Source: a virus
Length of the DNA: 64,000 bases
IMG/VR virus record: IMGVR_UViG_3300001533_002283
Coordinates: 64,001-128,000 of that record
Reading direction: 5' to 3' (one strand)
Shown here: positions 27,102-61,098 of the stretch, one piece after another
Layout: each line of letters begins with the position of its first letter
How positions within the stretch are numbered: position 1 is the first letter of the stretch
Translations under genes and position numbers: made by a program
Notes under the pieces: model-generated
The model's input: the letters and a program-made list of their open reading frames with translations, nothing else
What the model was told of the DNA's origin: nothing
The model's database searches: none

Positions 27102-28208
27102 TTATTCTTTATAATTCTTAATATCGTGTTGAACCATTCTCCACACCAAATCTTTAAACTTAACCTTTGGCTCCCAACCTAAGTCCTCTTTAATTTTCTT
27201 TGGTGTTCCATGCAAATAAACAACATCGGCAGGACGATAAAACTTTTCGTCAATTTGCACGGCCAAAACCTGACCATTTAAAATATAACCCTTTTCGTCT
27301 TTGCCCTCCCCTTGCCAAGATAAAGAAAAACCAGCGGCAAAAAATGCAAGTTCAATTAGTTCTTTAACCGTGTGGGTTTCTCCAGATGCCAAAACATACT
27401 CTCTAAGAAAAGAAACGGCGTATTCAGAATAATTTCCTTCTGTATAAAATTTTGGATTTAAATCTTTACGATAATTCTCTTGGTTCATCATCATCCAGAT
27501 TGCTTCCATGAAATCAGGGGCGTAACTCCAATCGCGCTTTGACTCAATATTACCAACGGAAATAGGAGCAGGAATTTTACCTAACTGATTTGTCTCGTGA
27601 TAAATTCTTGCAACTTCACTACTAATTTTTCGGGGCAGAAATGCCTTGGACCTGCGTTCGGACTCATGATTAAATAAAATCCCATGAATTGCATATAGAT
27701 TATAACTCTTTCTGTAACAATTAACTAGGTGACACGCGGCAATCTTCGACGCGGCGTATGGACTTTTAGCGGATTGAATGTGAAGTTCATCCATTGGAAG
27801 ATAGACCGGTTCAGAAAATTGCTCAGAAGTTCCAGCCGAGTAGAAACGGCAAGATGGTTGATAGAGTCGAATTGCTTCAAGACAGTTAAGAACCCCTACT
27901 GCATTAGTTTGAAAAGTAGCGGCAGGAATTAACCAACTTTCGGCAACGTGACTTTGGGCGCAAAAATTAAAAAAATATGCAGGTTTGTGGTCCTGAATTA
28001 GCTTATTGACCGCGACAGGATCGGTAATATCGGCAGAAGCAACTTTAAACCGAGGGTTATTCAAAAGGTGTTTGTAATTTACTTCATTAGGATTACTTTG
28101 TCGGCGTAATACTCCCACAATATTCATATCAGTATTTTCCAAGAGATAATCTGCCATGTGAGGAGCGTCCATTCCTGACATGCCCGTAATGATTGCAATT
28201 TTTGACAT
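27102..28208 (-). CDS. gmd: GDP-mannose 4,6-dehydratase
   Basis: ITGMSGMD, AQSHV.ES, AGTSE, SPYAASK, GILFNHESERR, KRDW, YRPADV..L.G. Confidence 0.92.
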   Translation of the reverse strand: MSKIAIITGMSGMDAPHMADYLLENTDMNIVGVLRRQSNPNEVNYKHLLNNPRFKVASADITDPVAVNKLIQDHKPAYFFNFCAQSHVAESWLIPAATFQTNAVGVLNCLEAIRLYQPSCRFYSAGTSEQFSEPVYLPMDELHIQSAKSPYAASKIAACHLVNCYRKSYNLYAIHGILFNHESERRSKAFLPRKISSEVARIYHETNQLGKIPAPISVGNIESKRDWSYAPDFMEAIWMMMNQENYRKDLNPKFYTEGNYSEYAVSFLREYVLASGETHTVKELIELAFFAAGFSLSWQGEGKDEKGYILNGQVLAVQIDEKFYRPADVVYLHGTPKKIKEDLGWEPKVKFKDLVWRMVQHDIKNYKE

Positions 28209-28240
28209 AATGTTATTATTGTTTATTTCCCCCAATTAAG

Positions 28241-30407: not shown

Positions 30408-30416
30408 TAATTTTCG

Positions 30417-32228: not shown

Positions 32229-32231
32229 ATT

Positions 32232-36259: not shown

Positions 36260-37039
36260 TTAATCCGATAAAACTTCTGGGATAGGTTTTCCAACCATAT
36301 TATAATAATCAGGATTAAATTCCAATTTATTTTCCGCTTCGTTCCATCTAAACGAACAATATTGCTGTCCCCACCGTTGAGCCTGATATCTTTGCTTAAG
36401 TTTCCCCCTCTCATCGGAAGGCCAAGTGTGGTGCGCCACGAGGCTTATTGTGGGTGGAATATTTCTATTGGAAAACTCTTTAAAGTCTTTTTGTTCACCG
36501 GTAACTTTGTGTTCGTAATATGGCTCGTTATCATGATAGAAGAAACCCATTTTATATACACCAGAGCTAACCCGAAAGGCGCGCGGCGGAGTGAACGGGG
36601 TGGCCAAATATTTATGATTGTCGAAAATATAATTCTTATAAGAGAAGCTGAACCAAGCAGTTAGGGAATCTCTGGCGATAAATCTGGCGATGTTGGAGAT
36701 GTTATCCAAGGTATAAAACTCATCGCTGTCCGCTAGGAAAACCCAATCACACCCTTGTTCCAATAAATAAAACAATGCCTTATTCCGCGCTTCCGCTTCT
36801 GATACAAATTTTGGCTCAGTTACCAGATAATCCAACGGTAACGTCTTCAAATATTCCGTCGCACATTCGTCATTCGCGAACTCTGTATCCTTATATTCCT
36901 TAAAGGGAACTGAAACCGCCGAGATAATCCAAGTGTTACCACCAGTTTTCTGTTCACGGGCTTTTAGCCAAACGGGAATGCTTTCTTTAACATATTCAAT
37001 ATTGCCGAAACCACAGTAGATCAATCCAATTTTAGCCAT
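36260..37039 (-). CDS. GT-A fold glycosyltransferase (GT2-like)
   Basis: EAEARN.AL, DWVFLADSDEFY. Confidence 0.75.
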   Translation of the reverse strand: MAKIGLIYCGFGNIEYVKESIPVWLKAREQKTGGNTWIISAVSVPFKEYKDTEFANDECATEYLKTLPLDYLVTEPKFVSEAEARNKALFYLLEQGCDWVFLADSDEFYTLDNISNIARFIARDSLTAWFSFSYKNYIFDNHKYLATPFTPPRAFRVSSGVYKMGFFYHDNEPYYEHKVTGEQKDFKEFSNRNIPPTISLVAHHTWPSDERGKLKQRYQAQRWGQQYCSFRWNEAENKLEFNPDYYNMVGKPIPEVLSD

Positions 37040-37065
37040 AATAATTTAGAGTAAAAGTTTTTACC

Positions 37066-37977
37066 TTACAATTTCTTCGCCCCACGTTCTTCCGCAAACC
37101 CCAACAACCAGAACATCTTATGTAATTCGCAAATCATGGAAATGAAGTTTGGCGCGGCGGCATAACCAGCAGAGTTCCAAAGCAGAAGATTCTTCACCGG
37201 ATTAAGCGTCACCAACTCTCGATTCAACTCTTTGGGATTAACCCCTTCAAAAATCTCCTTCTTCTCCGTCCCCCAATAAAATTCGTTTAACACACTCATC
37301 ATTTCAAACTTGCTTACACTTCCGCTCGGCACGAGATGGTGACACCCCGCAGAGAATAAATCGTTTTTAATAACGCCTTTGATAATTTGAGCAAGGTGAT
37401 AAGTTGTTACCCCGTTCCATTCGGTGTTGGTCCACCCAATATGCTTATCCGCTTCAATAAAACGCTCAAGAAATGAGTTTTTGGTGAATCGCTCTGGGCC
37501 GAGAATAGAACAGCGCAAATTCATCACGTTAGGAGAGATCACCTCCCCTAAGTGCTTACTCTTTGCGTAGTAATCACGAGAGCGATCAGCCGACATTTCA
37601 TCATTTTGGGGGAGTTTACTTTCGTCAAAAACGCAATCGGTTGTCAAGTGAATAATCTTAGACTCTTTGCAATTTTTGGCCAACTCAATAGGGAAAAGGG
37701 TGTTTAGTCTAACATATTCTTCGGGCGTGGGTTTTGCATTAGGAATCGCCCCGATGCAGTTAACGATGTAATCATAATTCTTGGCGAAAAACGGAGTGTC
37801 TTTAATCGCATCGAATTTATACACGTCGTAGCCTTTCCCTCGGAATAACTCTTCGCGGGAACGAGTGGTGACTCCAAGGTGGAGTGAATCATCCGCGCCT
37901 AACACCTTTTCTATCATACTCCCGGCCATGCCTGTTGCGCCGAGGATTAAAACTTTAGTTTTTTGATTGTTTGTCAT
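37066..37977 (-). CDS. RmlD-like NDP-4-keto-sugar reductase (SDR)
   Basis: LGATGMAG, VNCIG, HLTTDCVF, YAKSKHLGE, R.SI.G.E. Confidence 0.85.
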   Translation of the reverse strand: MTNNQKTKVLILGATGMAGSMIEKVLGADDSLHLGVTTRSREELFRGKGYDVYKFDAIKDTPFFAKNYDYIVNCIGAIPNAKPTPEEYVRLNTLFPIELAKNCKESKIIHLTTDCVFDESKLPQNDEMSADRSRDYYAKSKHLGEVISPNVMNLRCSILGPERFTKNSFLERFIEADKHIGWTNTEWNGVTTYHLAQIIKGVIKNDLFSAGCHHLVPSGSVSKFEMMSVLNEFYWGTEKKEIFEGVNPKELNRELVTLNPVKNLLLWNSAGYAAAPNFISMICELHKMFWLLGFAEERGAKKL

Positions 37978-37979
37978 TT

Positions 37980-38420
37980 TTAATTTAAAAGATTTTTATT
38001 TTCGAAATTATTTCCAACAACTTCATAGCTAAATACACTTCCGTTTTTGGGGCAGAACTCCCATTCTGAAACTGGGTAATAATTGTATTTAATAAAAGTC
38101 TCTTTATTTTCGTTAACACCGATTTCTGTTTTATATCTAGCGATAACTCCATTTCCTAGATGATAACATACTTCACAAAAGCAATTTCCCCTGCTTCCAG
38201 AAAAAACAAGAATATCTCCGATAAAAACTTTTTTGTTGTTTTTGTCAATACAATTCGTGGATGGTTGAACGACAAATCGACGATCTTTGTTTTTAATCGG
38301 TAAAAAATATCTACCATCAGACTCAAGAATGTTTCCCTCAACGTCCAACGCCAACTCATTATCATATCGTTTAGTCTGAGTATCCCATATTCTAAAAAAT
38401 TTTTGATATTGATTTGTCAT
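37980..38420 (-). CDS. YopX family protein
   Basis: FRIWD, T...DKN.K..F.GDI, EVVGN.FEN..LL. Confidence 0.75.
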   Translation of the reverse strand: MTNQYQKFFRIWDTQTKRYDNELALDVEGNILESDGRYFLPIKNKDRRFVVQPSTNCIDKNNKKVFIGDILVFSGSRGNCFCEVCYHLGNGVIARYKTEIGVNENKETFIKYNYYPVSEWEFCPKNGSVFSYEVVGNNFENKNLLN

Positions 38421-39295
38421 AATTTATTGTTAGTTTTTTCTAAAATTTTGGCTAGAACTTGATCTTGAGGGATGTTGTCGGTGCCGTGAAAAGAATAAAA
38501 AGAAAAGTTATTTGGATTATCGACAGATAGCGCAGAGGGATTGTTTTCATTACCCCAATGAATAGGAATAAGAGAAATTTGTGGAATAGAATACGCGCCG
38601 AGAACCAAGGCCGAACCAGAATCCGTTCCAATAACTAAATCACATTCCAAAGCCTCTTTAATCTGGTCGAAAAACGGAAGAGAATTTAAACGTAATACAG
38701 ATTGGTTTTTACCCCCAAATAATTCCCAATCTTTTTCGCCGCCAAATTGATAAATAAAATAACCACGAGCAATTAATGGTTCTAATAAAGACTCCCAATA
38801 GTGTAAACTTGGGTTACGAACGTTTTGTGCAGAGTATCCCGCCTGAATAAATGCCCCTATAATCTTCTTGGAGAAGTCTTTACGAGTTGAGGGCCAATAT
38901 TTTTTAAGTTGCGGACGACGCTCTTCCTCTGTCAATTTTTCCCACATGTCCATACTTAAACTAGCCATCCGCCACGTCTCAGAATATATCGAAAAGTGTC
39001 GCGGATAAAGATCATCCGGATGTTGGGGATTTATTTCCATGATATAGCTTGCTGAACGCATTTTCTCATAATCGCGTTTAGACTCAATCCCTTCCTTCCC
39101 ATCCGTGATATAAATCTCGTCAATCCATTCGCAATTGTAATAGATTGGGGCGATTTGCCTAACCTTATTTGCTGTTGGCCAAATCAGGTGTGATGATGGG
39201 AATAATTTCTTGAAATGACGGGCAATCGGTAGGGCTGCTACCTGATCTCCAATCATTTGCGCTCGGCCAATCCACAGAACGGGGCTTTCTTTCAT
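38417..39295 (-). CDS. GT9 (heptosyltransferase-like) glycosyltransferase
   Basis: IGD.VAALP..R..K..FP, CDLVIGTDSG. Confidence 0.8.
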   Translation of the reverse strand: MKESPVLWIGRAQMIGDQVAALPIARHFKKLFPSSHLIWPTANKVRQIAPIYYNCEWIDEIYITDGKEGIESKRDYEKMRSASYIMEINPQHPDDLYPRHFSIYSETWRMASLSMDMWEKLTEEERRPQLKKYWPSTRKDFSKKIIGAFIQAGYSAQNVRNPSLHYWESLLEPLIARGYFIYQFGGEKDWELFGGKNQSVLRLNSLPFFDQIKEALECDLVIGTDSGSALVLGAYSIPQISLIPIHWGNENNPSALSVDNPNNFSFYSFHGTDNIPQDQVLAKILEKTNNKL

Positions 39296-39382
39296 AGGTT
39301 TTTGTTTTTATTGTAAGCTCTCTGTTGTCCTTATCAAATACTTGGAGTAAGAAAAATCCATTTGAGTGTCTTTCTCCGCGCG

Positions 39383-40279
39383 TTACGAGACGTGATATAT
39401 ATTGTTTCTTGAGCAGAAGAGCTTGACTTCTTCTAATCCTTTTATATCAAAAATTTTATTTTCTTTTTTAAAAATTATCCTAGAATAAACATAATTTTTA
39501 TTTTTGGGTTTTATTTTTCTAGGGTTTAAAACCGTGAAGCCTCGATGGGATACCATCTTTTCTTTGAATAAGCATCCTACCGCTCCAGTGCTCAAGTCGT
39601 GCTCTCTACAAAATGCGGCTATGTTATCTACTTCATAAACTACATCGTCTTTTTTTAGAAATCTTGTTTTTGTTTTTCTATTCCTAGCCTTCATGTTGGC
39701 ATCTTTCAAATGAAATCCTTTTATTGACTTCATCTTATCAGCCAAAACCATAGATACTGCACTCCTGTATCTTTGCGGCCAGCCCATCTCCTCCACGAAC
39801 CCAGCTATCGAATTAAACTTATACTCAATCCCATCCTTATACAAGGAATAATCACCCAAAAACCTAGCCCTTTGTGATTTTCGCGCCCTTTCTCTAGTCT
39901 GTTCAGATAAAATCCGATTAGTCTTCCCTCCTCCGTTTAAGTTATATCCATTTGGACTTATGGTTTTATATTTTTCTATATAAAATTCCTCTAAAACATC
40001 AAGATCCTCTTTATTTTTAGAGTGTTCTAAAAGATAAATATAAAAGCTAGATTTTCCGTATTTTTTAACGGCTCTATAAAGCCTTGGGGCATCATGTTTA
40101 TTTGGCTTGAATCCTTTGTATCTTTTAGAGAAAGTTTTTGCCGTTTGACCTATATACATCATTCCATTTAGGCGATTCAAAATCAAATAAATGATATTCA
40201 ATTTGGTTTTAATATCCTCTTCGGAAGCAGAAATTAAATCTTTAATGCTCTCTGGAATTATGTCTATCGCCCTCTCCAT
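39383..40279 (-). CDS. GIY-YIG homing endonuclease with C-terminal repeats, last repeat frameshifted
   Basis: IIYLI.N..NG..YIGQT, LEEFYI, GYNL..GG. Confidence 0.85.
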   Translation of the reverse strand: MERAIDIIPESIKDLISASEEDIKTKLNIIYLILNRLNGMMYIGQTAKTFSKRYKGFKPNKHDAPRLYRAVKKYGKSSFYIYLLEHSKNKEDLDVLEEFYIEKYKTISPNGYNLNGGGKTNRILSEQTRERARKSQRARFLGDYSLYKDGIEYKFNSIAGFVEEMGWPQRYRSAVSMVLADKMKSIKGFHLKDANMKARNRKTKTRFLKKDDVVYEVDNIAAFCREHDLSTGAVGCLFKEKMVSHRGFTVLNPRKIKPKNKNYVYSRIIFKKENKIFDIKGLEEVKLFCSRNNIYHVS

Positions 40280-40281
40280 AT

Positions 40282-40818
40282 TTATACCCGAATAAATTTC
40301 TCCCCTGCCTTTACACCCCAACCATATAAGGCCATCTTATGGCCATTAGAAAAACGAAACAACAATTTCTCTGGATACTTCTCATCAACTAAAACTCCCT
40401 TGGTGTGAAAATCATCCATGAGAACAATTTGAGTTTTTAAATCACACTTTTCAAATTGAAATAATGCCTCATGGGGGCAAACCCCACCATCCAGATAAAC
40501 AAAATCGTAGGAATTATTAACGTGATTCTCTCCTTTGTCGCAAATAAAAGCGGCATCAGCGGCAAAATTATTCACAAGTTCCCTGCACAAATCAAGAGAT
40601 TCCTGATTAATGTCTATAACGGTCAAGTGTCCACCGTTTTTCTCCACATAATTCGCCCAATGAAGAGTGCTCCAACCATCGCCCGCGCGCCCGTTCAAAT
40701 CGCGGAGACAGCCCACTTCGATAAAAGTTGCTGGTTCGCCCTTTAGGTAAGTCAGCGCGGTTTTAAATACTTCATCGCGGGCGGAAGTTTCTGTTTTTAG
40801 TTTAGTTTTAATATCCAT
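40282..40818 (-). CDS. class I SAM-dependent methyltransferase
   Basis: IEVG, G.ST, VIDIN, DFVYLDG, MDD. Confidence 0.8.
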   Translation of the reverse strand: MDIKTKLKTETSARDEVFKTALTYLKGEPATFIEVGCLRDLNGRAGDGWSTLHWANYVEKNGGHLTVIDINQESLDLCRELVNNFAADAAFICDKGENHVNNSYDFVYLDGGVCPHEALFQFEKCDLKTQIVLMDDFHTKGVLVDEKYPEKLLFRFSNGHKMALYGWGVKAGEKFIRV

Positions 40819-40823
40819 GAGTG

Positions 40824-40976
40824 TTACCAAAATTTAGAGATAAAATGAAAAGCTACATAGCCGATTGCACCAATAAGTCCTAGTCCACCGATAAAGGTGA
40901 CTGACCATGTGACGATTAAAAACTTCTCAAAAGAAGTATGTTTGCGAAGAGAGGGCGGGTTTGAGATAGAATCCAT
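40824..40976 (-). CDS. small membrane protein (50 aa)
   Basis: MDSISNPP...FLIVTWSVTFIGGLGLIGAIGYVAFHFISKFW*. Confidence 0.6.
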   Translation of the reverse strand: MDSISNPPSLRKHTSFEKFLIVTWSVTFIGGLGLIGAIGYVAFHFISKFW

Positions 40977-40988
40977 AGGTTTTATTTG

Positions 40989-41576
40989 TTAAAGTTTAAT
41001 GTCACCGCGAAGATACCAAGAGTCGGTAACATCCATGTTAATTAACCTATAGTTATTTTCCTTAAACCAGTCAACCAATTTCTCATAATCCGGCGTGCGA
41101 TATTCCTCATTGTGCGTTTCCACACTTACGAACATCGGGCGGCTCACCATACGGGAAATGATCTTATACTCACATCCTTCCGTATCAATCAGCGCCACGT
41201 CAATATCACCCGTATCAATCTCGGCCATATCCCTCACATTCATTCTCACCCGTGGTTTTGCCGCAACCCACCCCTTCCCCATCTTCTGAGTCCCCAAAAC
41301 GAATGTCGGGGCAGCAACCTCGGCGGAACAGGTGGAGTCACCATCTTCTAAGAACTCGATAGTGTCGTTCTTATCGTATAGTCCAAAATTGTTAATTTCA
41401 ACATTGGGGATACTACCATAATGGGCGACCAAATCAGAATAAGTTTTGGGGTTCACTTCAAATAGTTTTAGCCGAATAGGGGTGTTGAAATAAGGTTGAG
41501 AGCGGGAGATATAGGGGTTGCCCACTCCGATTTCCCAAATATTTTTGGGGTTAAGTTGTTGGATGATTTCTTGCAT
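40989..41576 (-). CDS. FkbM family methyltransferase
   Basis: EIGVG, FEVNP, IDTEGCEY.I, VETH. Confidence 0.8.
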   Translation of the reverse strand: MQEIIQQLNPKNIWEIGVGNPYISRSQPYFNTPIRLKLFEVNPKTYSDLVAHYGSIPNVEINNFGLYDKNDTIEFLEDGDSTCSAEVAAPTFVLGTQKMGKGWVAAKPRVRMNVRDMAEIDTGDIDVALIDTEGCEYKIISRMVSRPMFVSVETHNEEYRTPDYEKLVDWFKENNYRLINMDVTDSWYLRGDIKL

Positions 41577-41585
41577 AGTATTATA

Positions 41586-42848
41586 TTAGAGTTTGTTAAG
41601 TTCGCGCGCCAAGTCAACCGCCATTTTAGGTGTGACCCCAGCATGTAAGCCAATGTAGATTGAGTTTTTGTGTAGATAATCCGCATTAGGATAATCCCTT
41701 GGGTTCCCAAGTCCCTTAAACGCCGTATGATAAAGCAAATTTGAACCAACTAATCCGCGATATCCAACGCCGACTGCTCCTAAATAGCCCTTTACCCGCT
41801 CGATTAAACCCTCATCAGGATAATCTGGGTTTTTCACAATGGGCAGGGCAAGTGGAACAAATTTATGAGATAAAAACCAATAAGAAGATAAATTTAAGAA
41901 TTTTTCCTTTGTCTCATTCAGGTCATAAATGCCACAGCCTTGAGAATCAAGCTCTGAATAAAAAAGATAGCTAATTTTTTGACGATATTTCTCCGACCAC
42001 TCTAAAGAACGATCAAAATCCAGAGAGTGCATATAAGCAATCAAGTTGGTCGTTCTGTAATTAGAGCCCATCACACAAAAATCAAAAGAGGGGTCAACGG
42101 AAAAATTCTTATACTTCTCTGGCATCCCCCGTGTCATCCCATGATTTCTCGCCATTTTTAACCAGTTGTAGGTTTCCTCGTCTTGGACAAAGCATAAGCC
42201 TGATTCCTGCATGCCGCTCGTAAAATGAGATGCATAAACTGATGTAGAAGAAAGAGTTATATTACAAAAATGTTTTTTGTAAAACTTGGTTGATAACCCA
42301 TCTCCATACGACGCCCAAGAAAAGGATGATTCACAATTGTCCAAATAAAGTGTTACACCTCTTTCTTTACAAATTTTTTCAATCTCCTCTAAATTACCAG
42401 ATTGACCAAGTAGAGTTGTGTAAAAAACGGTTTTGATTTCAGGGTCTTTATCTAACGTTTTTTGTATTTGTTCAGCAGAGGGGTTTAAATTACTTAACTC
42501 AACATCAACAAATACAGGTTTGAAAGAAAAATTAACAAAAACTGAGACTGAACTAATCCAATTCACCACATTAAAAAGAACTTTGTTTTCTCCGCATTTC
42601 CATAAACCTTGTTTTTTAAGTTCCTCTTTCCGATATAATGCAATCAATTCGTTCGCCGCGCTACCAGAGCCAACCATTACCACATAGGGACACCCCGTAT
42701 AATCACTCCATTTTTTTTCATACTTTTCGATTTCTGGTCCGACTGTCCACTTATCATTCGTCAGGAGAAATTTACTAATTTTTAGTTTGTCTAGTAGCGT
42801 CATGCTAGAATGACCTAATGGCCAATTAAACTTTTTCTTTTTGCTCAT
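41586..42848 (-). CDS. DegT/DnrJ-family PLP enzyme, ColD-like (GDP-4-keto-6-deoxymannose 3-dehydratase)
   Basis: SGS.AN, PVFVDV, LDNCES, SVYASH (His at the catalytic Lys position), RNHG, G.NYR. Confidence 0.78.
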   Translation of the reverse strand: MSKKKKFNWPLGHSSMTLLDKLKISKFLLTNDKWTVGPEIEKYEKKWSDYTGCPYVVMVGSGSAANELIALYRKEELKKQGLWKCGENKVLFNVVNWISSVSVFVNFSFKPVFVDVELSNLNPSAEQIQKTLDKDPEIKTVFYTTLLGQSGNLEEIEKICKERGVTLYLDNCESSFSWASYGDGLSTKFYKKHFCNITLSSTSVYASHFTSGMQESGLCFVQDEETYNWLKMARNHGMTRGMPEKYKNFSVDPSFDFCVMGSNYRTTNLIAYMHSLDFDRSLEWSEKYRQKISYLFYSELDSQGCGIYDLNETKEKFLNLSSYWFLSHKFVPLALPIVKNPDYPDEGLIERVKGYLGAVGVGYRGLVGSNLLYHTAFKGLGNPRDYPNADYLHKNSIYIGLHAGVTPKMAVDLARELNKL

Positions 42849-42853
42849 AAAAA

Positions 42854-43213
42854 TTATTCTTTGTTGTATCCTACCTTAATCTCTGCCGAGCCCCCACCGA
42901 AAAACTCGTCTTGAATTTTCTGTTTTGCTAAAAAGCGATTCCAGTTTAGGCCGTCAACCACAAGGGCGTCAACCCCACCTTTTTTAATCTCATCAACCAT
43001 CCTAAACACATCTAAATTAGCTTGAAGCAATTCTAAATACAAATCAGAACGATATGCGGCTAAAAACTTTTCCCCACCCTGCTCTTTTAAGTGTAAATAG
43101 CACTCGTCAAAAAGCCGTTGAGATTCCTCTGTTTTTGTTTGTAGACTTTTGATGCGCAAGATCGAAAGAAAGTCCAAAGCATAAGACTCTGATACTTTTA
43201 AATTATAGGGCAT
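42854..43213 (-). CDS. DUF6165-like protein (glycosyltransferase-associated)
   Basis: D.LSIL.IK ... AN..V...VD ... N..R..AK..I....G....EIK. Confidence 0.55.
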   Translation of the reverse strand: MPYNLKVSESYALDFLSILRIKSLQTKTEESQRLFDECYLHLKEQGGEKFLAAYRSDLYLELLQANLDVFRMVDEIKKGGVDALVVDGLNWNRFLAKQKIQDEFFGGGSAEIKVGYNKE

Positions 43214-44087
43214 TGACCACCTCCAAGATTTTACCCGCAACGCCAACTGGTGATGTTTTTTCTTTTAGGTTTTTCACGTAATGGTTATAAAGCCGATCTT
43301 TTAAATCTTGATTTTTTGCATTTTTCATCATAAAAGAAATAATCGTTTCCGGCTTATCAACATCATAATCATATTCAGGGAATAGCTCGCTTGGGATTAA
43401 CTCTTCCCTTGTCGTGAGTCGCGGATGAATTAGGGGGATACACCCACAGGCCATTGCTTCTATAGGTATCAACGAAAGTCCCTCCCATTCCCCGAAAGAG
43501 AAAGAAAAAGAAGCGGAGGAATAAAGATAAGAAAGTGTTTCGCTGTCAACTATTCCCAAGCTAATACCAACACCTCCGTATTCCGGACCCACATCAACAA
43601 CAACCTCTGAGTTTAAACCTATAGAAATCAAATCTTGAACGATTCTCGCGTTTTTATTCGGATCGTGCTTCCTCCCCACATTAATACAGAGGAATTTAAA
43701 GCTGCATTTTTCCATTAGCTGGATATTTGAAATTGGCTGATAGATGACGGCAGAATTAATATTGAAAAACTTAACTAATTGTCTTTGAACATGTAGCGAA
43801 ATTGAAGTAACCGCATCCGCATGGGACAATAATTTTTTACAATTATCTAACGAATACCCATTGGGTAGTAAAAACTCTGGTATGTCTAAAATATTCAGAA
43901 TCAACTTTGCATTTGGGCTCCGCGCCTTACATTCAATCGCCGCAGGGTGACTCCCCTCATCATTTGAATAAATAAAATCAGGGTTATTATCCGACTCGGT
44001 TAAGCCTAGCGCAAGAAACCCCGCCTTGATACGCTGAATCTGCCCCGTTTCTCCACCCCAGCCGAAACATTTAAAGGTTTTGATCAT
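43203..44087 (-). CDS. GT4 glycosyltransferase
   Basis: L..LYS.A, EGLSL.PIEAMACG. Confidence 0.85.
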   Translation of the reverse strand: MIKTFKCFGWGGETGQIQRIKAGFLALGLTESDNNPDFIYSNDEGSHPAAIECKARSPNAKLILNILDIPEFLLPNGYSLDNCKKLLSHADAVTSISLHVQRQLVKFFNINSAVIYQPISNIQLMEKCSFKFLCINVGRKHDPNKNARIVQDLISIGLNSEVVVDVGPEYGGVGISLGIVDSETLSYLYSSASFSFSFGEWEGLSLIPIEAMACGCIPLIHPRLTTREELIPSELFPEYDYDVDKPETIISFMMKNAKNQDLKDRLYNHYVKNLKEKTSPVGVAGKILEVVNAL

Positions 44088-44604
44088 CTTGATTTCTAAT
44101 TGGACTGAACTTGTTAAACTGATCATCCATCATAGAGAAGATAAACTGATCATCCGTCATAGAGAAAACGTCCTTTAGTTTTATGGGTGTAGGTAAATCA
44201 CCCGTAATTCTATCTGGCCCTTTGATTGTAATTTTCTTTTTAACTTGAAATGGGACACGAAAAAAGAAAAAGTTTAGATATTTGGTTTTGTAAATAACTT
44301 CTTCCCGCTCAAAAATAAAAGAAGCCGATATTTTTTCATCCCACGAAAAAACTCCATTAGAGTAAGAAATTCCGTAATTAGCTATAGTGACTTTAATATC
44401 ATCGGGAATCTGTGCCCATATTAAACGCGGCATTGACACGCTGTATTTACCCTTGATATAAGCCCCTTTAATTGCCTCAAATATAAATCCAAAATCTTTC
44501 ATTTCAGTCCGACCGACCCTAGTAACATACCATCCGTGCGGCCACTCGTTGGTAATTATCTTTTGTTTTTTACCTTTAAAAAGATTTTTTATTAGTTTTT
44601 TCAT
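44071..44604 (-). CDS. hypothetical protein
   Basis: Tightly packed ORF. Confidence 0.6.
   Translation of the reverse strand: MKKLIKNLFKGKKQKIITNEWPHGWYVTRVGRTEMKDFGFIFEAIKGAYIKGKYSVSMPRLIWAQIPDDIKVTIANYGISYSNGVFSWDEKISASFIFEREEVIYKTKYLNFFFFRVPFQVKKKITIKGPDRITGDLPTPIKLKDVFSMTDDQFIFSMMDDQFNKFSPIRNQDDQNL
44115..44166. repeat. 27-bp-period tandem duplication
   Basis: TAAACTGATCATCCRTCATAGAGAA twice; encodes FSMTDDQF / FSMMDDQF. Confidence 0.85.
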
Positions 44605-44605
44605 A

Positions 44606-45418
44606 TTATTTTATAATTAAATTATGCTTAAACATTTCCCGTTTTTCTAACTTACTTAACTCTGTCGCCACCTCAACCTCACGCCCCGCCTCCGCGCCCC
44701 ATTGTTTCCGCCAAAAATTCCGATTGATTTCGACTCTCCGCTCAAGATCAATCCATCCGTAGTGAACTACATAGGGTAAGTTTTGTTCGCGGAGAAAATT
44801 CGCAGCGGTTTCCTTAGTGGAAAAACTTGGTTCGTCAAAGTAGAGAAACGCGGGGACTAAATCCCCATAGGTGTTAAGAAGTTCGCAAGAGTCTGATTTG
44901 TTGGTGTCATGCGTCCCGTCCGCGTTCTTGGAGAAGTTAACCACTCCCCGCTTTAGCCCGCGCTTGTGCAAATACCACTTGGAGGTAAACGATGAAAAAT
45001 GTTCTTTGTCACTGTATAGATTTACCGAAGGGATAAACGCAGCTTGAAAAATATCACTCTCTAAAACAATCTCAGAAAGTTTATCCCAATATTCCAAATT
45101 ATGCAACGACATCTTTTCATCAAAGTCCAGTTGCAACAAAATGTCACCCCCGCACGCCTGTAATGCGGCGTTTTTCAAATCACCGTCAAAGGTGGGAGTA
45201 AATTGTTTTAACTCTGTCTTAATTACCCGCAATTTTGGATAATCCTTGGCTTTACCCAATAAATACTCGTAAGTCCTATCTGCATCCTCAATCGTCGCCA
45301 CTACCACCTCATCCGCCCAGACGGAAAAATTATCTAGGTGTTCATCAATATTGAACTTATTAGTTTTATAATTAAAAAGTGTGGTATAAATAGACTTCTT
45401 AAAAGTGGGAATTGACAT
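44606..45418 (-). CDS. GT-A fold glycosyltransferase (GT2-like)
   Basis: DEVVV, D.T, KNAALQAC.GD..LQLDFDE, HYGW. Confidence 0.8.
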   Translation of the reverse strand: MSIPTFKKSIYTTLFNYKTNKFNIDEHLDNFSVWADEVVVATIEDADRTYEYLLGKAKDYPKLRVIKTELKQFTPTFDGDLKNAALQACGGDILLQLDFDEKMSLHNLEYWDKLSEIVLESDIFQAAFIPSVNLYSDKEHFSSFTSKWYLHKRGLKRGVVNFSKNADGTHDTNKSDSCELLNTYGDLVPAFLYFDEPSFSTKETAANFLREQNLPYVVHYGWIDLERRVEINRNFWRKQWGAEAGREVEVATELSKLEKREMFKHNLIIK

Positions 45419-45426: not shown

Positions 45427-45456
45427 AGTATTAACCTTTTTAATGAAACCCGTCAA
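45427..45456 (-). promoter_or_regulatory. promoter TTGACG-N18-AATACT heading the glycan cluster
   Basis: Motif 8 nt upstream of the GT2 start. Confidence 0.55.
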
Positions 45457-45974
45457 GAGAAATCTTTACGGGGCAATTCTTCCTCGCTAACAATTTTTAG
45501 TTCAAAATGATTATTGGTAACTACATCACCAGAGTATAATAAATAACCGTCTTTAATTTCGTGAATTTTATACCCATTGGTTTTAACTTTGTATGCGACG
45601 AACTCATTCATTTTATAGGTAAAAACCGATTCATACCTACAAAGTTCCACGTTAAGAATGAAATCCCTTAGTTTGTGGGGGTCTAATCTCTTATTACCAC
45701 CTACCAAAACAATCAAATCACATTGAGAATGAATTGCAGAGTCGATGGCCATTTGTTCTGGTTCGTAAGGATTAGAAGAATAAAAAACTTGATCTAGCCG
45801 GTAATCCATAAAATATTTTTCCGCCTCTTCGTCTTCTTTTTCCGTATGTGTTACTCCAATTATAACATACTTAAAGTTTAACAAATTATGTCGGCGAAAA
45901 AGTCTCAATTCGGCGCAATTTTTACGATAAAATTCCCCAAGGGGAGAATCAATGATAAAACAAATTTTTTTCAT
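45453..45974 (-). CDS. hypothetical protein, possibly a degenerate GT-A fold
   Basis: AI..A...CD.IV.VGG..R.D resembles the GT2 DxD strand without acids. Confidence 0.5.
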   Translation of the reverse strand: MKKICFIIDSPLGEFYRKNCAELRLFRRHNLLNFKYVIIGVTHTEKEDEEAEKYFMDYRLDQVFYSSNPYEPEQMAIDSAIHSQCDLIVLVGGNKRLDPHKLRDFILNVELCRYESVFTYKMNEFVAYKVKTNGYKIHEIKDGYLLYSGDVVTNNHFELKIVSEEELPRKDFS

Positions 45975-46397: not shown

Positions 46398-46405
46398 TGC
46401 GGAAG

Positions 46406-46471: not shown

Positions 46472-46477
46472 TCCTTT

Positions 46478-49180: not shown

Positions 49181-49705
49181 ATGAGCAACACGATGTTTGA
49201 CAAAGTGAAAATCGAAGGAAAACCCTACACGAAAGGCGATTGGCGAAAATATGCAGTTCACACGGACACCGAAATAAAAGGTTTCTTTGGCGATTATCGT
49301 TTTCTTTCAAATATGTGGCCGGTTAACGTCTATGGTTTTCCCTCGGTCGAGAACGCATACATGGCCGCGAAAATTGTTAAAGAGGAAAGGGATTATTTCA
49401 AGACTTGTTCGCCCTATGAAGCAAAGAAAAATTGGCGGAAGTTTAAACTGATTGATTCCACCCCTGCCGATTGGGATAATAGAAAGTTTGACGTAATGAG
49501 CAGGTTAGTTTTTGAAAAGTTTTTAGTCGATAAGGCGTTACGGGCAAAATTGCTTGAAACAGAGGATAAATACTTGGAGGAAAAAAATTTTTGGAACGAC
49601 TCCTACTGGGGGTGCGACATTAAAAGGGGCGGATTTAACCACTTGGGGGAAATCCTCATGGGTGTTCGCGCGTTTTGGCAAACTCAAACCGATATAAAAC
49701 TATGA
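49181..49705 (+). CDS. NADAR (YbiA-like) family protein
   Basis: F...YRFLSN, SVENAYMAAK, W...K..VM.....KF, LLET, W.DSYWG, G.N.LGEILM.VR. Confidence 0.9.
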   Translation: MSNTMFDKVKIEGKPYTKGDWRKYAVHTDTEIKGFFGDYRFLSNMWPVNVYGFPSVENAYMAAKIVKEERDYFKTCSPYEAKKNWRKFKLIDSTPADWDNRKFDVMSRLVFEKFLVDKALRAKLLETEDKYLEEKNFWNDSYWGCDIKRGGFNHLGEILMGVRAFWQTQTDIKL

Positions 49706-50307
49706 CCAATATTTCCACCTCCTCCCTCTCCTCCCTCTCCGACCTAGACTTAATCCAAGAGGTCAAAATCAACAACAATTCCACCGCAATTTCCATCCTG
49801 ACCGACCGCCACAGTGGAGTTTACCACACGATTGCTAATCAATATAAGTTTAACCCCTATGTATGTTATCCCGATGTGATAAAAAATAAGGATTTTGTGG
49901 TATGGCAAGCAGCGATAAAATACGATGCGGGGAAAGGTAGTTTTGCCAATCTCGTTGCCAACATGGCGCGTTATGAGTGTTACTCCATGATTAACGAGAG
50001 TAAAAAATATCGGGTGAACCAACGGGCGGGACTAGAAGACGCGGCGGAACTACCCCAAGAGAATGACAAAGGTGAACTCACCCATATGGTTAGCTACATC
50101 GAGGAGATTTTACCAGACGACCCGAAAACAAAAAAGATTATCATGGACCGTTTTGTTAATGGCGGGGCAAAACCGACCCCTTGGCGCGAAGTGGCGAAGA
50201 AGAACGGGATGAGCCATTGGGGGTGCGTGTTGCGGGCGCGGGATGCAATTAAGGAGATTCAGGGAAAGATGCGAAGTGAATTTAGAGATTTGCCAAAAAT
50301 TGATTAG
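49702..50307 (+). CDS. phage sigma70-like transcription factor
   Basis: SDL.LI, A...L..RH, AAIKYD..KG.F region 2; II..RF...W.EVA region 4 HTH. Confidence 0.7.
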   Translation: MTNISTSSLSSLSDLDLIQEVKINNNSTAISILTDRHSGVYHTIANQYKFNPYVCYPDVIKNKDFVVWQAAIKYDAGKGSFANLVANMARYECYSMINESKKYRVNQRAGLEDAAELPQENDKGELTHMVSYIEEILPDDPKTKKIIMDRFVNGGAKPTPWREVAKKNGMSHWGCVLRARDAIKEIQGKMRSEFRDLPKID

Positions 50308-50327: not shown

Positions 50328-51410
50328 ATGATTAACGTTAATGTAGCGATCAATAATCTCTCGCTTGGCTATTGTGGTTATCAAATCACTTCGCAATTGC
50401 TCAAACAAGGCATCTCATTTAATTTTCAAAACCTTGGTAATGAGGTAGATACGTCGTGTTATAACAAACGTGCGTTCAACTACGACGCCACAATATCCTC
50501 AAAACTTCAATCTTTCCGCAAGAATTATTCCCGCCGCGACCCCACGTTAATGTGTTGGCATTTGAACGGAAGTCAAAACACCATCGGCACCGGTAACCAC
50601 CTCTTTACCTTTCACGAACTAGACTCCCTCACCCCCGCCGAAGTTAACGTCGCTAACAACCAAGAACAAATTTTTGTTTCCTCGCGCGAGTCGGTAGAAG
50701 TGTTTAAGGAATATGGGGTGACGGTCCCCGTTTCGTATATTCCCCTCGGTTACGACACCGACCATTTTTACCCCACGGGACGGAAATATCTTAAAGGTGC
50801 GACCGTCTTTGGCATTTTTGGCAAATTTGAGAAGAGAAAAAACACTGCGAAAACTATTCGTGCGTGGTTGAAAAAGTTTGGTAACAACCCTGCGTATCGC
50901 CTTCACTGTTTTATCTACAACCCGTTTTTTACCGCCGAACAGAATAAAGAAATTGCGTTGAAAATTGTTGAGGGTAAGGACTATAATAACATTAACTTCT
51001 TTGGTTACACCAAGACTCTCGTGGAACTTAACGATGCTTTTAACTGCTGCGATGTTGTCTTAGACATGAGTGGCGGGGAAGGATTTTCACTCGGTTCTTT
51101 TCATTGCGTAGGTATGGATAAACGCGCAGTAATCCATAATGTAACCGCCATGAAAGATTGGGCGATTGATTCGCCTAATGTAAAATTGGTAGAACCTTGT
51201 GAGAAAAATCCTGCCGCTGACGGGGTGTTTTTTGCAAAAGAGGGAGAGTTCAACATCGGCAATATCTACGGGTGGAATGAAGATGAATTTTTGGGCGCGC
51301 TGGATGAGATTGTAAAAATAGAGAGCGTTCCGGTTCGAGATGAATTTACCAAGAAATACTCATGGGAAAATACGGTGAATGAGATTTTAACAAAAATGGG
51401 AGTAAAATAA
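50328..51410 (+). CDS. GT4 glycosyltransferase
   Basis: IPLGYD...F.P, GKFEKRKN, S.GEGFSL, YSW. Confidence 0.85.
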   Translation: MINVNVAINNLSLGYCGYQITSQLLKQGISFNFQNLGNEVDTSCYNKRAFNYDATISSKLQSFRKNYSRRDPTLMCWHLNGSQNTIGTGNHLFTFHELDSLTPAEVNVANNQEQIFVSSRESVEVFKEYGVTVPVSYIPLGYDTDHFYPTGRKYLKGATVFGIFGKFEKRKNTAKTIRAWLKKFGNNPAYRLHCFIYNPFFTAEQNKEIALKIVEGKDYNNINFFGYTKTLVELNDAFNCCDVVLDMSGGEGFSLGSFHCVGMDKRAVIHNVTAMKDWAIDSPNVKLVEPCEKNPAADGVFFAKEGEFNIGNIYGWNEDEFLGALDEIVKIESVPVRDEFTKKYSWENTVNEILTKMGVK

Positions 51411-53574: not shown

Positions 53575-53604
53575 GCCGCATGGTGATAAACCTTGCGGTT
53601 TTTT
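53575..53604 (+). terminator. intrinsic terminator
   Basis: GCCGCA.GG-loop-CC.TGCGGT followed by a T-tract. Confidence 0.7.
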
Positions 53605-53605
53605 A

Positions 53606-53634
53606 TTGCCAAAAAGCACCTCACTTTCAAGTAT
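53606..53634 (+). promoter_or_regulatory. promoter TTGCCA-N17-AAGTAT, ATG 6 nt downstream
   Basis: Immediately after the terminator. Confidence 0.6.
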
Positions 53635-53640
53635 AACATC

Positions 53641-60621: not shown

Positions 60622-61098
60622 TTAAACGGTATTTACCTCGTATCCATACCAAGAAATGAAAGGTCTCTCTCCCGCTGGAACGGGTGAGGTTTTATCTGTT
60701 CTGAATAACTCCACCGGATTTGCCCATAAAGAACCACATCCAATAGCACGTTCTGCAACCCTATCCTCAATAACATGAGTAAATATTTTTAACAAAGTTG
60801 GTGGACCACCTTCCGTTGCGGTAAACGGAGCCGGAATAGACGTTTCTAAGGTAAAATTAACCGAGGTCGCAACTCCCGTTGCCAACGTAACATTTGCAAT
60901 TAAATACACCGTTCCACTTGCGGGCGCACTCAACCCAGTCAAAACGGGCACAATCCCATTGATTGTTCCGGTTGTTTGGTAAGAAACATCGCCCGTTCCC
61001 GAGTTTACAGATATTTCTAAAGGACAGCTAACCCCCGCATCCGCCTTAATTACGGTATTAGGAAAATTAAAATATTTACTTGCGTTATTGACAGCCAT
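60622..61098 (-). CDS. putative virion protein
   Basis: Beta-rich, GTING.VP motif. Confidence 0.55.
   Translation of the reverse strand: MAVNNASKYFNFPNTVIKADAGVSCPLEISVNSGTGDVSYQTTGTINGIVPVLTGLSAPASGTVYLIANVTLATGVATSVNFTLETSIPAPFTATEGGPPTLLKIFTHVIEDRVAERAIGCGSLWANPVELFRTDKTSPVPAGERPFISWYGYEVNTV

What the first reader, a model, noticed from the sequence alone, without database searches (positions are those of the whole stretch)
36260..45418. Complete phage-encoded glycan pathway, probably for virion glycosylation
Seen: this cluster has two GT2-like, one GT9 and one GT4 transferase, two methyltransferases, a ColD-like enzyme, an RmlD-like reductase and a DUF6165-like gene. Gmd (27102) and four more GT genes (50328, 53641, 55552, 57590) lie elsewhere in the window. 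No flippase, polymerase or membrane-bound GT for host surface conversion is visible, and no hydroxymethyl-pyrimidine synthase for DNA glycosylation. The S/T-rich structural genes offer acceptors. Known: virion glycosylation occurs in some mycobacteriophages and giant viruses. Inference: cytoplasmic stepwise assembly of a methylated deoxy-sugar glycan on virion proteins.
Basis: partly seen in the sequence, partly recalled or inferred. Interest (0 to 1): 0.82.

Follow-up and report, generated by a model that had tools for sequence, protein, structure and literature searches.

The report
Phage glycan island and glycosylated-fibre cassette
An uncultured 172-kb phage, probably of Verrucomicrobia-type bacteria, carries its own deoxy-sugar pathway and about ten soluble sugar-adding enzymes, one of them tied in many phages to an extremely serine/threonine-rich tail-fibre protein, so it probably sugar-coats its own particle, though this is untested.

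Summary
Window 36260-45418 encodes two GT-A (GT2-like) transferases, a GT9-like and a GT4 transferase, an FkbM methyltransferase, a weaker second methyltransferase, a ColD-type 3-dehydratase, an RmlD-like reductase and a DUF6165-like protein. Gmd and the four other GTs are real. "Complete" overstates it, because GDP-mannose must come from the host.

- **Island.** It is not a one-off. About 70 uncultured phage contigs with the same PolIII-alpha/DnaB/RecA replication genes keep Gmd-GT2a-GT2b plus a variable sugar cassette at the same spot.
- **Fibre cassette.** The GT-A at 57590-58612 belongs to a tight Pfam-less family. In 23 of 32 distinct phage cassettes it lies directly downstream of a 27-43% Ser+Thr protein and an RBP-shoulder-like protein. 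In relatives it is also contiguous with island GTs.
- **Rivals.** No hydroxymethylase, TET, flippase, GtrA, initiating transferase or integrase was found in the whole genome.
- **Caveat.** Two near-complete relatives keep the island but lack the GT-A and any S/T-rich protein, so the island's general acceptor is open.

Virion (fibre) glycosylation is the best reading, at about 0.5. First readers of this scan noted the same S/T-protein/GT-A pair here and in one other genome.

The parts
27102..28235 (-). GDP-mannose 4,6-dehydratase (Gmd), entry enzyme of the sugar branch
   Evidence: PF16363 1.1e-86; homologue present in 62 of 73 related loci
36260..37039 (-). GT2a, a GT-A/GT2-like glycosyltransferase and core gene of the island
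   Evidence: Homologues carry PF00535; profile A1 hits TarS at 1.7e-3 with DxD aligned; found in 73 viral loci
37066..37977 (-). RmlD-like SDR, putative 4-ketoreductase
   Evidence: PF01370/PF04321 about 1e-11, TIGR01214 2e-13, PDB 2ggs 5.5e-5
37980..38420 (-). YopX-domain protein, role unknown, probably a passenger
   Evidence: PF09643 1e-4, phrog_98 1e-12
38417..39295 (-). GT9-like (heptosyltransferase-fold) glycosyltransferase
   Evidence: Profile A3 hits 3tov GT9 at 1.4e-10 and 1psw at 4.8e-7
39383..40321 (-). GIY-YIG homing endonuclease inserted between the methyltransferase and the GT9-like gene
   Evidence: PF01541 7.5e-7, phrog_7168 4.6e-26; absent at this position in relatives L011 and L012
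40282..40830 (-). Probable class I SAM methyltransferase (weak call)
   Evidence: Methyltransf_24 at 2.7e-4, below the cut-off; no PDB hit; 83% identical in L012
40989..41576 (-). FkbM-family methyltransferase
   Evidence: PF05050 2.4e-7, above the cut-off
41586..42848 (-). ColD-type PMP-dependent GDP-4-keto-6-deoxymannose 3-dehydratase
   Evidence: PF01041 2e-30; ColD 2gms 7e-26; invariant His and no Lys at the His188 position in 20 homologues
42854..43246 (-). Small helical DUF6165-like protein that travels with Gmd and ColD
   Evidence: No Pfam hit; Atlas structure TM 0.74 to DUF6165 clusters; next to Gmd or ColD in 20 loci
43203..44126 (-). GT4 (GT-B) glycosyltransferase
   Evidence: Profile A7 hits WbaZ-1, WaaB and WbnH at about 1e-9; weak PF00534
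44071..44604 (-). Orphan ORF of 177 aa, function unknown
   Evidence: No Pfam, PHROG or NCBIfam hit and no homologue in related loci
44606..45418 (-). GT2b, probable GT-A glycosyltransferase and core gene of the island
   Evidence: Profile A2 hits TarS at E 0.06 with DLDE on the DxD; present in 56 of 73 loci, usually next to GT2a
45453..45974 (-). Orphan ORF of 173 aa, function unknown
   Evidence: No family hit
49675..50307 (+). Conserved 210-aa partner of the next GT, function unknown
   Evidence: Adjacent to the GT50328 homologue in 23 loci
50328..51410 (+). Glycosyltransferase (phage GT family)
   Evidence: phrog_2170 2.7e-15; present in 34 related loci
53593..55545 (+). GT1-family (GT-B) glycosyltransferase with a DUF4214 domain
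   Evidence: PF00534 3.9e-7, PF13946 2e-7; phrog_2170 1.4e-15
55552..56739 (+). GT9 glycosyltransferase
   Evidence: PF01075 1.6e-7, above the cut-off
56760..57593 (+). Conserved 277-aa protein that always follows the two preceding GTs
   Evidence: The three genes are contiguous in L088, L118, L124, G001 and G003
57590..58612 (-). Orphan-family GT-A glycosyltransferase, last gene of the tail operon
   Evidence: AF2 pLDDT 85.6; COLGALT1 at Foldseek 3e-9 and Z 19.5; invariant DSD; no Pfam hit; 136 representatives
58653..60617 (-). 654-aa protein with 35.5% Ser+Thr, in tail-fibre position; the proposed glycan acceptor
   Evidence: Composition; positional equivalents of 27-43% S+T lie upstream of the GT-A in 23 distinct cassettes
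60622..61098 (-). 158-aa all-beta protein resembling the N-terminal shoulder of phage receptor-binding proteins
   Evidence: Homologues in 27 loci; AF2 pLDDT 87; best Z 6.5 to the A-1(L) tail fibre, then HFTV1 fibre, p2 RBP and TssK

Best explanation
The phage encodes a self-contained cytoplasmic glycosylation system.

Sugar branch:
- Host GDP-mannose is dehydrated by the phage Gmd (shown by homology).
- The product is deoxygenated at C3 by a ColD-type, His-containing PMP enzyme (shown by its active-site signature).
- It is then reduced by the RmlD-like SDR to a GDP-3,6-dideoxyhexose of colitose type (inferred; stereochemistry unknown).

Assembly:
- About ten soluble GT-A and GT-B transferases build a short glycan stepwise, and one or two methyltransferases O-methylate it (inferred).

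Acceptor:
- The acceptor is most likely the virion itself.
- In this phage the prime candidate is the 654-aa, 35% Ser/Thr protein at the distal end of the tail operon.
- The adjacent orphan-family GT-A would prime it, and the neighbouring GT1/GT9 enzymes and the island GTs would extend the glycan (inferred from synteny).

The variable sugar cassette (ColD, methyltransferases, GT9, GT4, reductase) would diversify the outer sugars between related phages. The likely uses are shielding the fibre or tuning adhesion.
For: Enzyme identities are given under the observation check.

Soluble and autonomous:
- No ORF in the window has two or more hydrophobic spans.
- No Bac_transf, GtrA, Wzx or integrase was found in the whole genome.

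The island is a conserved core trait, not a moron:
- 73 viral loci hold GT2a. Gmd is present in 62 of them and GT2b in 56.
- The order is fixed: RNR-GT2b-GT2a-(variable genes)-Gmd-RecA-DnaB-PolIII.

Link to a virion protein:
- In loci L086-L125, 23 of the 28 distinct ORFs of at least 300 aa with at least 27% S+T are the ORF immediately upstream of the GT-A, on the same strand.
- In 13 of these 23 the two genes overlap by 4 nt.
- The pair is preceded in 27 loci by a homologue of the 158-aa protein.
- That protein's best structural matches are tail-fibre and RBP shoulder domains and TssK (Z 6.5 to 4.2).
- Baseplate-module homologues flank the cassette.

Link between the GT-A and the island:
- L088 has GT53593-GT9-o56760-p158-S/T protein-GT-A as one co-directional block.
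- In L118 and L124 the GT-A directly follows that GT triad.
- In L121 it lies between the GT50328 homologue and Gmd.

Precedent:
- Chlorovirus PBCV-1 uses a viral GMD, soluble GTs expressed early, a GT-A plus methyltransferase protein and cytoplasmic assembly to glycosylate its capsid (PMC5408694).
- Mycobacteriophage capsid and tail-tube glycans are cited in PMC12619734.
Against: - No experiment or proteomic data exists; the phage is uncultured.
- Relatives G003 (complete, 202.7 kb) and G001 (92% complete) keep the island. They have neither the GT-A nor any ORF with an S/T-dense segment.
- Only 1 of 8 long island-bearing relatives has the GT-A. The island must therefore have another acceptor there, and it is unidentified.
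- The island lies in the replication/nucleotide block on the replication strand, not in the structural module.
- The nearest solved relatives of the GT4 and GT9 enzymes are LPS and O-antigen enzymes.
- The fold of the GT-A does not reveal its acceptor. Hyaluronan synthase, a mannosyltransferase and WrtF score within 1-2 Z of COLGALT1.
- The S/T protein is poor in Pro and rich in Phe/Leu, has no tandem repeats, and could not be modelled. High S/T could reflect a beta-rich fibre fold rather than glycosylation sites.
Confidence: 0.5

Rival explanations
1. Host envelope remodelling. The soluble GTs act at the inner face of the host membrane on lipid-linked LPS-core, O-antigen or capsule intermediates, and the host's own flippases and ligases export the product. 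The altered surface blocks superinfection or stops progeny from re-adsorbing to debris.
For: - The closest solved relatives of the GT4 and GT9-like enzymes are LPS and O-antigen transferases such as WaaB, WbaZ, WbnH, WaaC and WaaF.
- Such enzymes are peripheral and need no membrane span, so the lack of membrane proteins does not exclude this reading.
- This is the published reading of GT clusters beside the tail-fibre genes of pelagimyophages (PMC7029224).
- It explains why the island persists in relatives without an S/T-rich protein.
- A receptor-modifying gene beside the receptor-binding gene has a precedent in T5 llp/oad (my own knowledge).
Against: - No initiating phosphoglycosyl transferase, GtrA, Wzx or other multi-span protein was found.
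- There is no integrase, so the phage is presumably lytic and has little time for surface turnover.
- It does not explain the tight, often translationally coupled link of the GT-A to a protein whose only conserved property is extreme S/T content.
Confidence: 0.25
2. DNA hypermodification. The GTs add sugars to phage DNA bases to evade restriction, as in T-even phages and in TET-associated systems.
For: - The island sits among replication and nucleotide-metabolism genes (RNR, ThyX, RecA, DnaB) on the same strand.
- Variable sugar cassettes are typical of arms races over DNA modification (Pyle 2024, cited in PMC12619734).
- An extra GT2-like gene lies next to a C5-cytosine methylase just upstream of the window.
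Against: - No ThyA-type hydroxymethylase, TET/JBP or 2OG-Fe(II) oxygenase was found in the complete genome.
- The phage has C5 and N6/N4 DNA methylases, which suggests it protects its DNA by methylation.
- To my knowledge no GDP-deoxyhexose donors or GT9 or GT4 enzymes are known in DNA glycosylation.
Confidence: 0.06
3. A non-virion target. The glycan goes onto a host or phage cytoplasmic protein or a small molecule, for example to disarm a host factor. The S/T protein/GT-A adjacency would then reflect some other shared function.
For: - The island's acceptor is unidentified in G001 and G003.
- The GT-A is sometimes found away from any S/T protein (L121, L124, G007).
Against: - Ten GTs plus a deoxy-sugar branch and methyltransferases point to an oligosaccharide, which is unusual for regulatory protein glycosylation.
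- There is no positive evidence for any such target.
Confidence: 0.12

Closest known systems
Chlorovirus PBCV-1 autonomous capsid glycosylation (GMD/GMER, A064R and other soluble GTs; PMC5408694)
   Same: Both have a virus-encoded GDP-mannose 4,6-dehydratase branch. Both have several GT-A and GT4 transferases without membrane spans or signal peptides, sugar methylation, a gene set conserved across a virus group, and sugar decorations that vary between viruses.
   Different: The host here is bacterial. The sugar branch runs through a ColD-type 3-dehydratase rather than GMER. GT9-like enzymes are present. The candidate acceptor is an S/T-rich tail protein, which implies O-linkage, rather than Asn sites on the capsid protein. 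Nothing has been shown biochemically.
Mycobacteriophage virion O-glycosylation (Freeman et al. 2023, as cited in PMC12619734)
   Same: Tailed phages in which phage-encoded GTs are linked to glycans on structural proteins.
   Different: Those phages have only a few GT genes and no nucleotide-sugar pathway of this size. Their acceptors are the C-termini of capsid and tail-tube subunits, not a dedicated fibre-position protein. No homologue of GT2a, the GT-A or the RecA-like protein was found in 50,697 GenBank phage records. I could not read the primary paper.
Bacterial serine-rich-repeat adhesins with dedicated cytoplasmic GTs (GspB/Fap1 with GtfA/GtfB), and autotransporter heptosyltransferases (TibC/Aah, a GT9-related family); from my own knowledge
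   Same: A Ser/Thr-rich surface adhesin is encoded next to soluble transferases that glycosylate it in the cytoplasm before assembly or export. GT9-fold enzymes can be protein O-glycosyltransferases.
   Different: The phage protein has no tandem repeats. No GtfA/GtfB pair or accessory Sec system is present. The adjacent enzyme is an orphan GT-A family. TibC did not appear among the profile hits of the GT9-like gene.
E. coli O55 / Yersinia GDP-L-colitose pathway (Gmd, ColD, ColC)
   Same: Gmd plus a DegT-fold enzyme whose best PDB match is ColD and which has His in place of the PLP-binding Lys.
   Different: The final enzyme is a distant RmlD-like reductase, not a ColC/GDP-fucose-synthase-type epimerase-reductase. 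The product may therefore be a D-series 3,6-dideoxyhexose. ManB and ManC are absent.
LPS-type gene clusters beside the tail-fibre region of pelagimyophages and cyanomyophages (PMC7029224)
   Same: Large aquatic phages with many GT and deoxy-sugar genes near the tail-fibre genes, of unknown target.
   Different: A different phage lineage: PolIII-alpha/DnaB/RecA replication rather than T4-like. Here the island is a syntenic core trait of the lineage, and one GT is locked to a specific structural-position gene.

Membership tests
ColD-type GDP-4-keto-6-deoxy-D-mannose 3-dehydratase | DegT/DnrJ/EryC1 (fold-type I aminotransferase) domain | tested here: met
   PF01041 2e-30
ColD-type GDP-4-keto-6-deoxy-D-mannose 3-dehydratase | His replaces the PLP-binding Lys (His188 of E. 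coli ColD) | tested here: met
   The motif Y-x-x-H with no Lys is invariant in 20 phage homologues. The register puts this His on His188 of 2gms, as judged against the H188N and H188K mutant chains.
ColD-type GDP-4-keto-6-deoxy-D-mannose 3-dehydratase | Closest solved relative is ColD rather than an aminotransferase | tested here: met
   2gms/3gr9 ColD at 7e-26, against E1 dehydrase at 8.5e-12 and aminotransferases at 1e-9 or weaker
ColD-type GDP-4-keto-6-deoxy-D-mannose 3-dehydratase | 3-deoxygenation activity on the Gmd product | not testable with these tools
   Needs an enzyme assay. Gmd is encoded in the same genome.
GT9 (heptosyltransferase family) for 38417-39295 | Sequence-profile similarity to GT9 over both Rossmann halves | tested here: met
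   Profile A3: 3tov at 1.4e-10 in two stretches, 1psw at 4.8e-7, WaaC at 6.5e-4. The single sequence gives no PF01075 hit.
GT2 / GT-A for 36260-37039 and 44606-45418 | GT-A N-terminal Rossmann domain with a DxD motif | tested here: inconclusive
   GT2a: PF00535 on homologues, TarS at 1.7e-3, DSDE aligned. GT2b: only TarS at E 0.06, DLDE aligned. No structure was predicted for either.
Virus-encoded autonomous virion glycosylation (chlorovirus or mycobacteriophage type) | Virus encodes nucleotide-sugar enzymes and several soluble GTs | tested here: met
Virus-encoded autonomous virion glycosylation (chlorovirus or mycobacteriophage type) | Glycan covalently attached to a virion protein | not testable with these tools
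   Only synteny of the GT-A with a fibre-position S/T-rich protein is available.
Phage seroconversion / host O-antigen modification (Gtr, Wzy, Oac type) | Integral-membrane GtrA/GtrB/Gtr-type protein, Wzx/Wzy or an initiating transferase | tested here: not met
   No PF04138, PF01943 or PF02397 in the whole genome. No ORF in the window has two or more hydrophobic spans. Wzy and acyltransferase families were not searched.
Phage seroconversion / host O-antigen modification (Gtr, Wzy, Oac type) | Temperate lifestyle (integrase) | tested here: not met
   No PF00589. Serine integrases were not searched.
Phage DNA glycosylation (T-even or TET-associated) | A source of 5-hydroxymethyl-pyrimidine (ThyA-type hydroxymethylase or TET/JBP dioxygenase) | tested here: not met
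   No PF00303, PF12851 or PF13640 at E up to 0.1-1 in the complete genome
Serine-rich-repeat glycoprotein systems (SRRP with GtfA/B) | Tandem serine-rich repeats in the acceptor | tested here: not met
   No tandem repeat at the DNA level in 57500-62300. There are 24 S/T runs of at least 3, but they are irregular.
DUF6165 (PF19662) for 42854-43246 | Match to the Pfam model | tested here: inconclusive
   No hit in 17 family members at E up to 0.1. The Atlas model matches clusters that are 95-97% DUF6165 at TM 0.74.

The most novel reading that the evidence does not exclude
A whole lineage of uncultured large phages of Verrucomicrobiota/Planctomycetota builds its own variable, methylated dideoxy-sugar glycan. 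Many PVC-associated phages carry a three-gene module of baseplate adaptor, hyper-Ser/Thr fibre protein and dedicated orphan-family GT-A. That module would make a heavily O-glycosylated receptor-binding appendage. It would be the first glycoprotein tail fibre in bacteriophages, with sugar diversity rather than protein sequence tuning adhesion or shielding.
Probability: 0.35. Interest if true: 0.8.

Novelty: new variant of a known kind. Interest (0 to 1): 0.62.

Why it matters
Virion glycosylation is established for giant algal and amoebal viruses and for a few mycobacteriophages, but it is not seen as a general phage trait. This work shows two things.
- A ten-enzyme glycan system is a conserved, syntenic feature of a whole uncultured phage lineage.
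- A compact, testable module (adaptor, S/T-rich protein, GT-A) recurs in dozens of phages with no cultured representative.

The module offers a two-protein experiment that needs no host culture. If the fibre proves to be glycosylated, that would change how host range, particle stability and environmental stickiness of aquatic phages are modelled. It would also assign a function to a Pfam-less GT family and would describe what I believe is the first viral ColD-type dideoxy-sugar branch. If the glycan goes to the host surface instead, the same data would define a lytic-phage surface-remodelling system that works without any membrane component.

Tried and rejected
- **Nucleotide and protein searches of 50,697 GenBank phage records.** The cluster DNA, GT2a, the RecA-like protein and the GT-A gave nothing. 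The ColD-like protein found only ~27%-identical Synechococcus phage aminotransferases. No annotated relative could be used.
- **PHROG scan of ten structural proteins.** Almost no hits, so capsid, sheath and tube could not be named. I could not check them for acceptor tails beyond an S/T window scan.
- **Timing of expression.** The sigma-70 and terminator scans found no more sites than shuffled sequence. A CTTGATTT promoter-like box is confined to genome 1-60 kb. A TATAACAC box just before start codons occurs in early, replication and tail genes alike. The temporal class of the GT genes is therefore unresolved. A TTGAC-N-GCCC-AAA pair in the divergent region 46398-46748 has only three copies in the genome.
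- **The S/T protein.** No positional homology was found by phmmer or composition-corrected BLAST. The Atlas model has pLDDT 0.26 and gave no usable neighbours.
- **The 158-aa protein.** No sequence-profile hit to PDB. Foldseek found nothing significant against PDB or BFVD. Only VIA gave middling Z scores.
- **GT-A profile against PDB sequences.** Nothing.
- **T4-like affiliation.**
- **Moraphage lineage (PMC12619734).** Considered and not pursued: those are phages of up to 307 kb assigned to Bacteroidota, and I made no sequence comparison.
- **Closed or missing resources.** Freeman et al. 2023 is not held.

Full report
**Setting.** The window is bases 64001-128000 of a 172,181-bp IMG/VR phage record that CheckV rates as complete.
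- Replication genes are a DnaE-type PolIII alpha, DnaB and a RecA-like protein. LAGLIDADG ORFs sit beside the first two.
- TerL lies at genome 158031-159914. A long minus-strand structural array runs from there down to window 57590.
- Almost none of the structural proteins match PHROGs.
- No GenBank phage record holds a relative of GT2a, the RecA-like protein or the GT-A. The lineage is uncultured.

**The observation.** ORFs at the stated coordinates are all on the minus strand. Single-sequence Pfam, PHROG and NCBIfam scans directly confirmed:
- the RmlD-like SDR;
- the FkbM methyltransferase;
- the DegT-fold enzyme;
- a weak GT1 signal.

The other calls needed profiles. I built these from homologues in related viral loci:
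- GT2a homologues carry PF00535, and the profile aligns its DSDE motif to the DxD of TarS.
- The GT9-like gene hits GT9 structures at 1.4e-10.
- The GT4 gene hits WbaZ-1, WaaB and WbnH at about 1e-9.
- GT2b is only weakly GT-A-like (E 0.06).
- The second methyltransferase stays below Pfam's cut-off.
- The DUF6165 label rests only on an Atlas structure match of TM 0.74.

The ColD call is the best supported.
- ColD is the top solved relative at 7e-26.
- The comparison with the deposited H188N and H188K mutant chains fixes the register.
- All 20 phage homologues have an invariant His and no Lys at that position.

Gmd (1e-86) and the four outlying GTs are confirmed.

The one at 57590-58612 has no Pfam hit. 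It folds with confidence (pLDDT 85.6) as a GT-A with an invariant DSD motif. Its best structural match is collagen galactosyltransferase COLGALT1 (Foldseek 3e-9; Z 19.5, rmsd 3.6 over 248 residues). Other GT-A enzymes score within 1-2 Z.

A further GT2/CAP59-like gene lies 4 kb before the window, next to a C5 DNA methylase. There is no nucleotidyltransferase, so GDP-mannose must come from the host, and "complete" is too strong.

**The island is a lineage trait.** A profile of GT2a recovered 73 viral loci. Mapping all proteins of this genome onto them gave these counts:

| Gene | Loci with a homologue (of 73) |
|---|---|
| Gmd | 62 |
| RecA-like | 57 |
| GT2b | 56 |
| GT at 50328 | 34 |
| GT4 | 32 |
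| ColD-like | 20 |
| DUF6165-like | 20 |
| GT9-like | 15 |

- The order recurs. The GT50328 pair lies on the opposite strand. Then come RNR, GT2b, GT2a, a variable set (GT4, ColD, DUF6165-like, GT9-like, methyltransferases, reductase), Gmd, RecA, DnaB and PolIII.
- So there is a conserved core plus a diversifying sugar cassette, placed at the head of the replication block.
- In the nearest relative (a 191-kb contig) ColD and the two methyltransferases are 71-83% identical, while the flanking GTs are 38-50% identical.
- The homing endonuclease is absent there.

**The fibre cassette.**
- The GT-A family is large and isolated. It has more than 470 clusters at 90% identity, with members 50-75% identical to the query.
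- Among 1.84 billion representatives it has 136 hits and no distant relatives.
- In 40 viral loci, many from contigs of only 13-80 kb, it lies directly downstream of a 484-874-aa ORF with 27-43% Ser+Thr.
- Of the 28 distinct ORFs of at least 300 aa with at least 27% S+T in those loci, 23 occupy that position. In 13 of the 23 the two genes overlap by 4 nt.
- These proteins share composition, position and a short N-terminal M-x-x-[S/T]-W-like motif. They have no alignable sequence.
- The window copy has 19.1% Ser and 16.4% Thr, which is 6.4 sd above the genome mean. It has 0.9% Lys and no Cys. It is also Phe/Leu-rich and Pro-poor, so it is not a classical mucin domain.
- A homologue of the 158-aa protein precedes the pair in 27 loci. 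Its model (pLDDT 87) best matches the N-terminal regions of the cyanophage A-1(L) and HFTV1 tail fibres, the phage p2 RBP, SPP1 gp22 and TssK (Z 6.5-4.2). The scores are middling but the theme is coherent.
- Upstream lie baseplate-module homologues.
- In genomes of cellular organisms the GT-A occurs only on MAG contigs of Verrucomicrobiota and Planctomycetota.

**Bridging cassette and island.**

| Locus | Arrangement |
|---|---|
| L088 | GT53593, GT9, o56760, p158, S/T protein and GT-A form one co-directional block |
| L118 (closest relative) | the GT-A has switched strand and follows the GT triad, facing the S/T gene |
| L124 | the GT-A follows the triad with no S/T gene in view |
| L121 | the GT-A lies between the GT50328 homologue and Gmd |
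| L117 | a Gmd-like SDR follows the GT-A |

The GT-A therefore belongs to the same gene neighbourhood as the island GTs, and separately to the fibre gene. This is the main support for a virion acceptor in this phage.

**The limit of that argument.** Of eight long island-bearing relatives searched whole, only one has the GT-A, and there it sits among GTs. G003 (complete) and G001 (92% complete) keep nearly the whole island. They have no GT-A and no S/T-dense segment in any real ORF. Island and cassette are separable modules. Where the S/T protein is absent, the island's acceptor is unknown.

**Rivals.**
- DNA glycosylation is unlikely. No ThyA-type hydroxymethylase, TET/JBP or 2OG oxygenase was found, and DNA methylases are present.
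- Classical seroconversion machinery and an integrase are absent.
- Remodelling of host lipid-linked intermediates by peripheral GTs cannot be excluded. It is the usual published reading of such clusters.
- The position of the island among early or middle genes does not argue against virion glycosylation, because the PBCV-1 GTs are expressed early.
- I could not assign temporal classes from promoter motifs.

**Verdict.**
- The best reading is a phage-encoded cytoplasmic glycan system whose product decorates the virion, with the S/T-rich fibre-position protein as the prime acceptor in this phage (about 0.5).
- Host-envelope remodelling comes next (about 0.25).
- It is a new variant of virus-encoded glycosylation rather than a new kind of system. 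The conserved adaptor / S/T protein / GT-A module is the most original and most testable part.
- First readers of this scan had already flagged that pair in this genome and in one other genome.

Noticed in passing
window 39383-40321: A free-standing GIY-YIG homing endonuclease is inserted between the methyltransferase and the GT9-like gene of the glycan operon. The closest relatives (L011, L012) have the two genes adjacent without it.
   Followed up: partly
window 7391-8605 and 12458-13858: LAGLIDADG-domain ORFs are wedged beside or overlapping the PolIII-alpha/PHP genes and the DnaB gene. They may be inteins or homing endonucleases that split replication genes.
   Followed up: no
window 57590-58612 and loci L086-L133: The GT-A belongs to a tight, Pfam-less family. 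It has 136 representatives at 50% identity and no distant relatives in 1.84 billion proteins. In cellular genomes it occurs only on Verrucomicrobiota and Planctomycetota MAG contigs.
   Followed up: yes
window 49181-49705: A NADAR-domain protein (PF08719 3e-18) lies in the plus-strand arm. It is a possible ADP-ribose-removing counter-defence enzyme.
   Followed up: no
window 28241-34805: A nucleotide-metabolism block lies between Gmd and the island. It holds a GMP-reductase/IMPDH-like protein, a cobalamin adenosyltransferase, a zinc-finger/DUF723 protein and an 857-aa RNR with a TSCPD domain.
   Followed up: no
genome 58985-61542 (2.5-5 kb before the window): A GT2/CAP59-like transferase lies next to a C5-cytosine DNA methylase. 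That layout recalls TET-type DNA hypermodification loci, but no TET/JBP gene was found in the genome.
   Followed up: partly
genome 62311-63453 (just before the window): A TnpB/Cas12f-like ORF (OrfB_IS605 plus TNB domain) sits in the phage genome. It has a 49%-identical copy in relative L010.
   Followed up: no
genome-wide, e.g. window 36195, 46216, 61107, 64382: The motif TATAACAC lies 0-4 nt before start codons of early, replication and tail genes alike. CTTGATTT promoter-like boxes are confined to genome 1-60 kb.
   Followed up: partly
window 25043-25630: An HNH/NUMOD4 homing endonuclease lies next to ThyX (24399-25064). It is a third mobile endonuclease in the window.
   Followed up: no
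window 42854-43246 and related loci: The small DUF6165-like protein sits almost always directly upstream of Gmd or next to ColD. The Atlas shows DUF6165 fused to GNAT acetyltransferases in giant viruses. It may be an unrecognised accessory of GDP-sugar pathways.
   Followed up: partly
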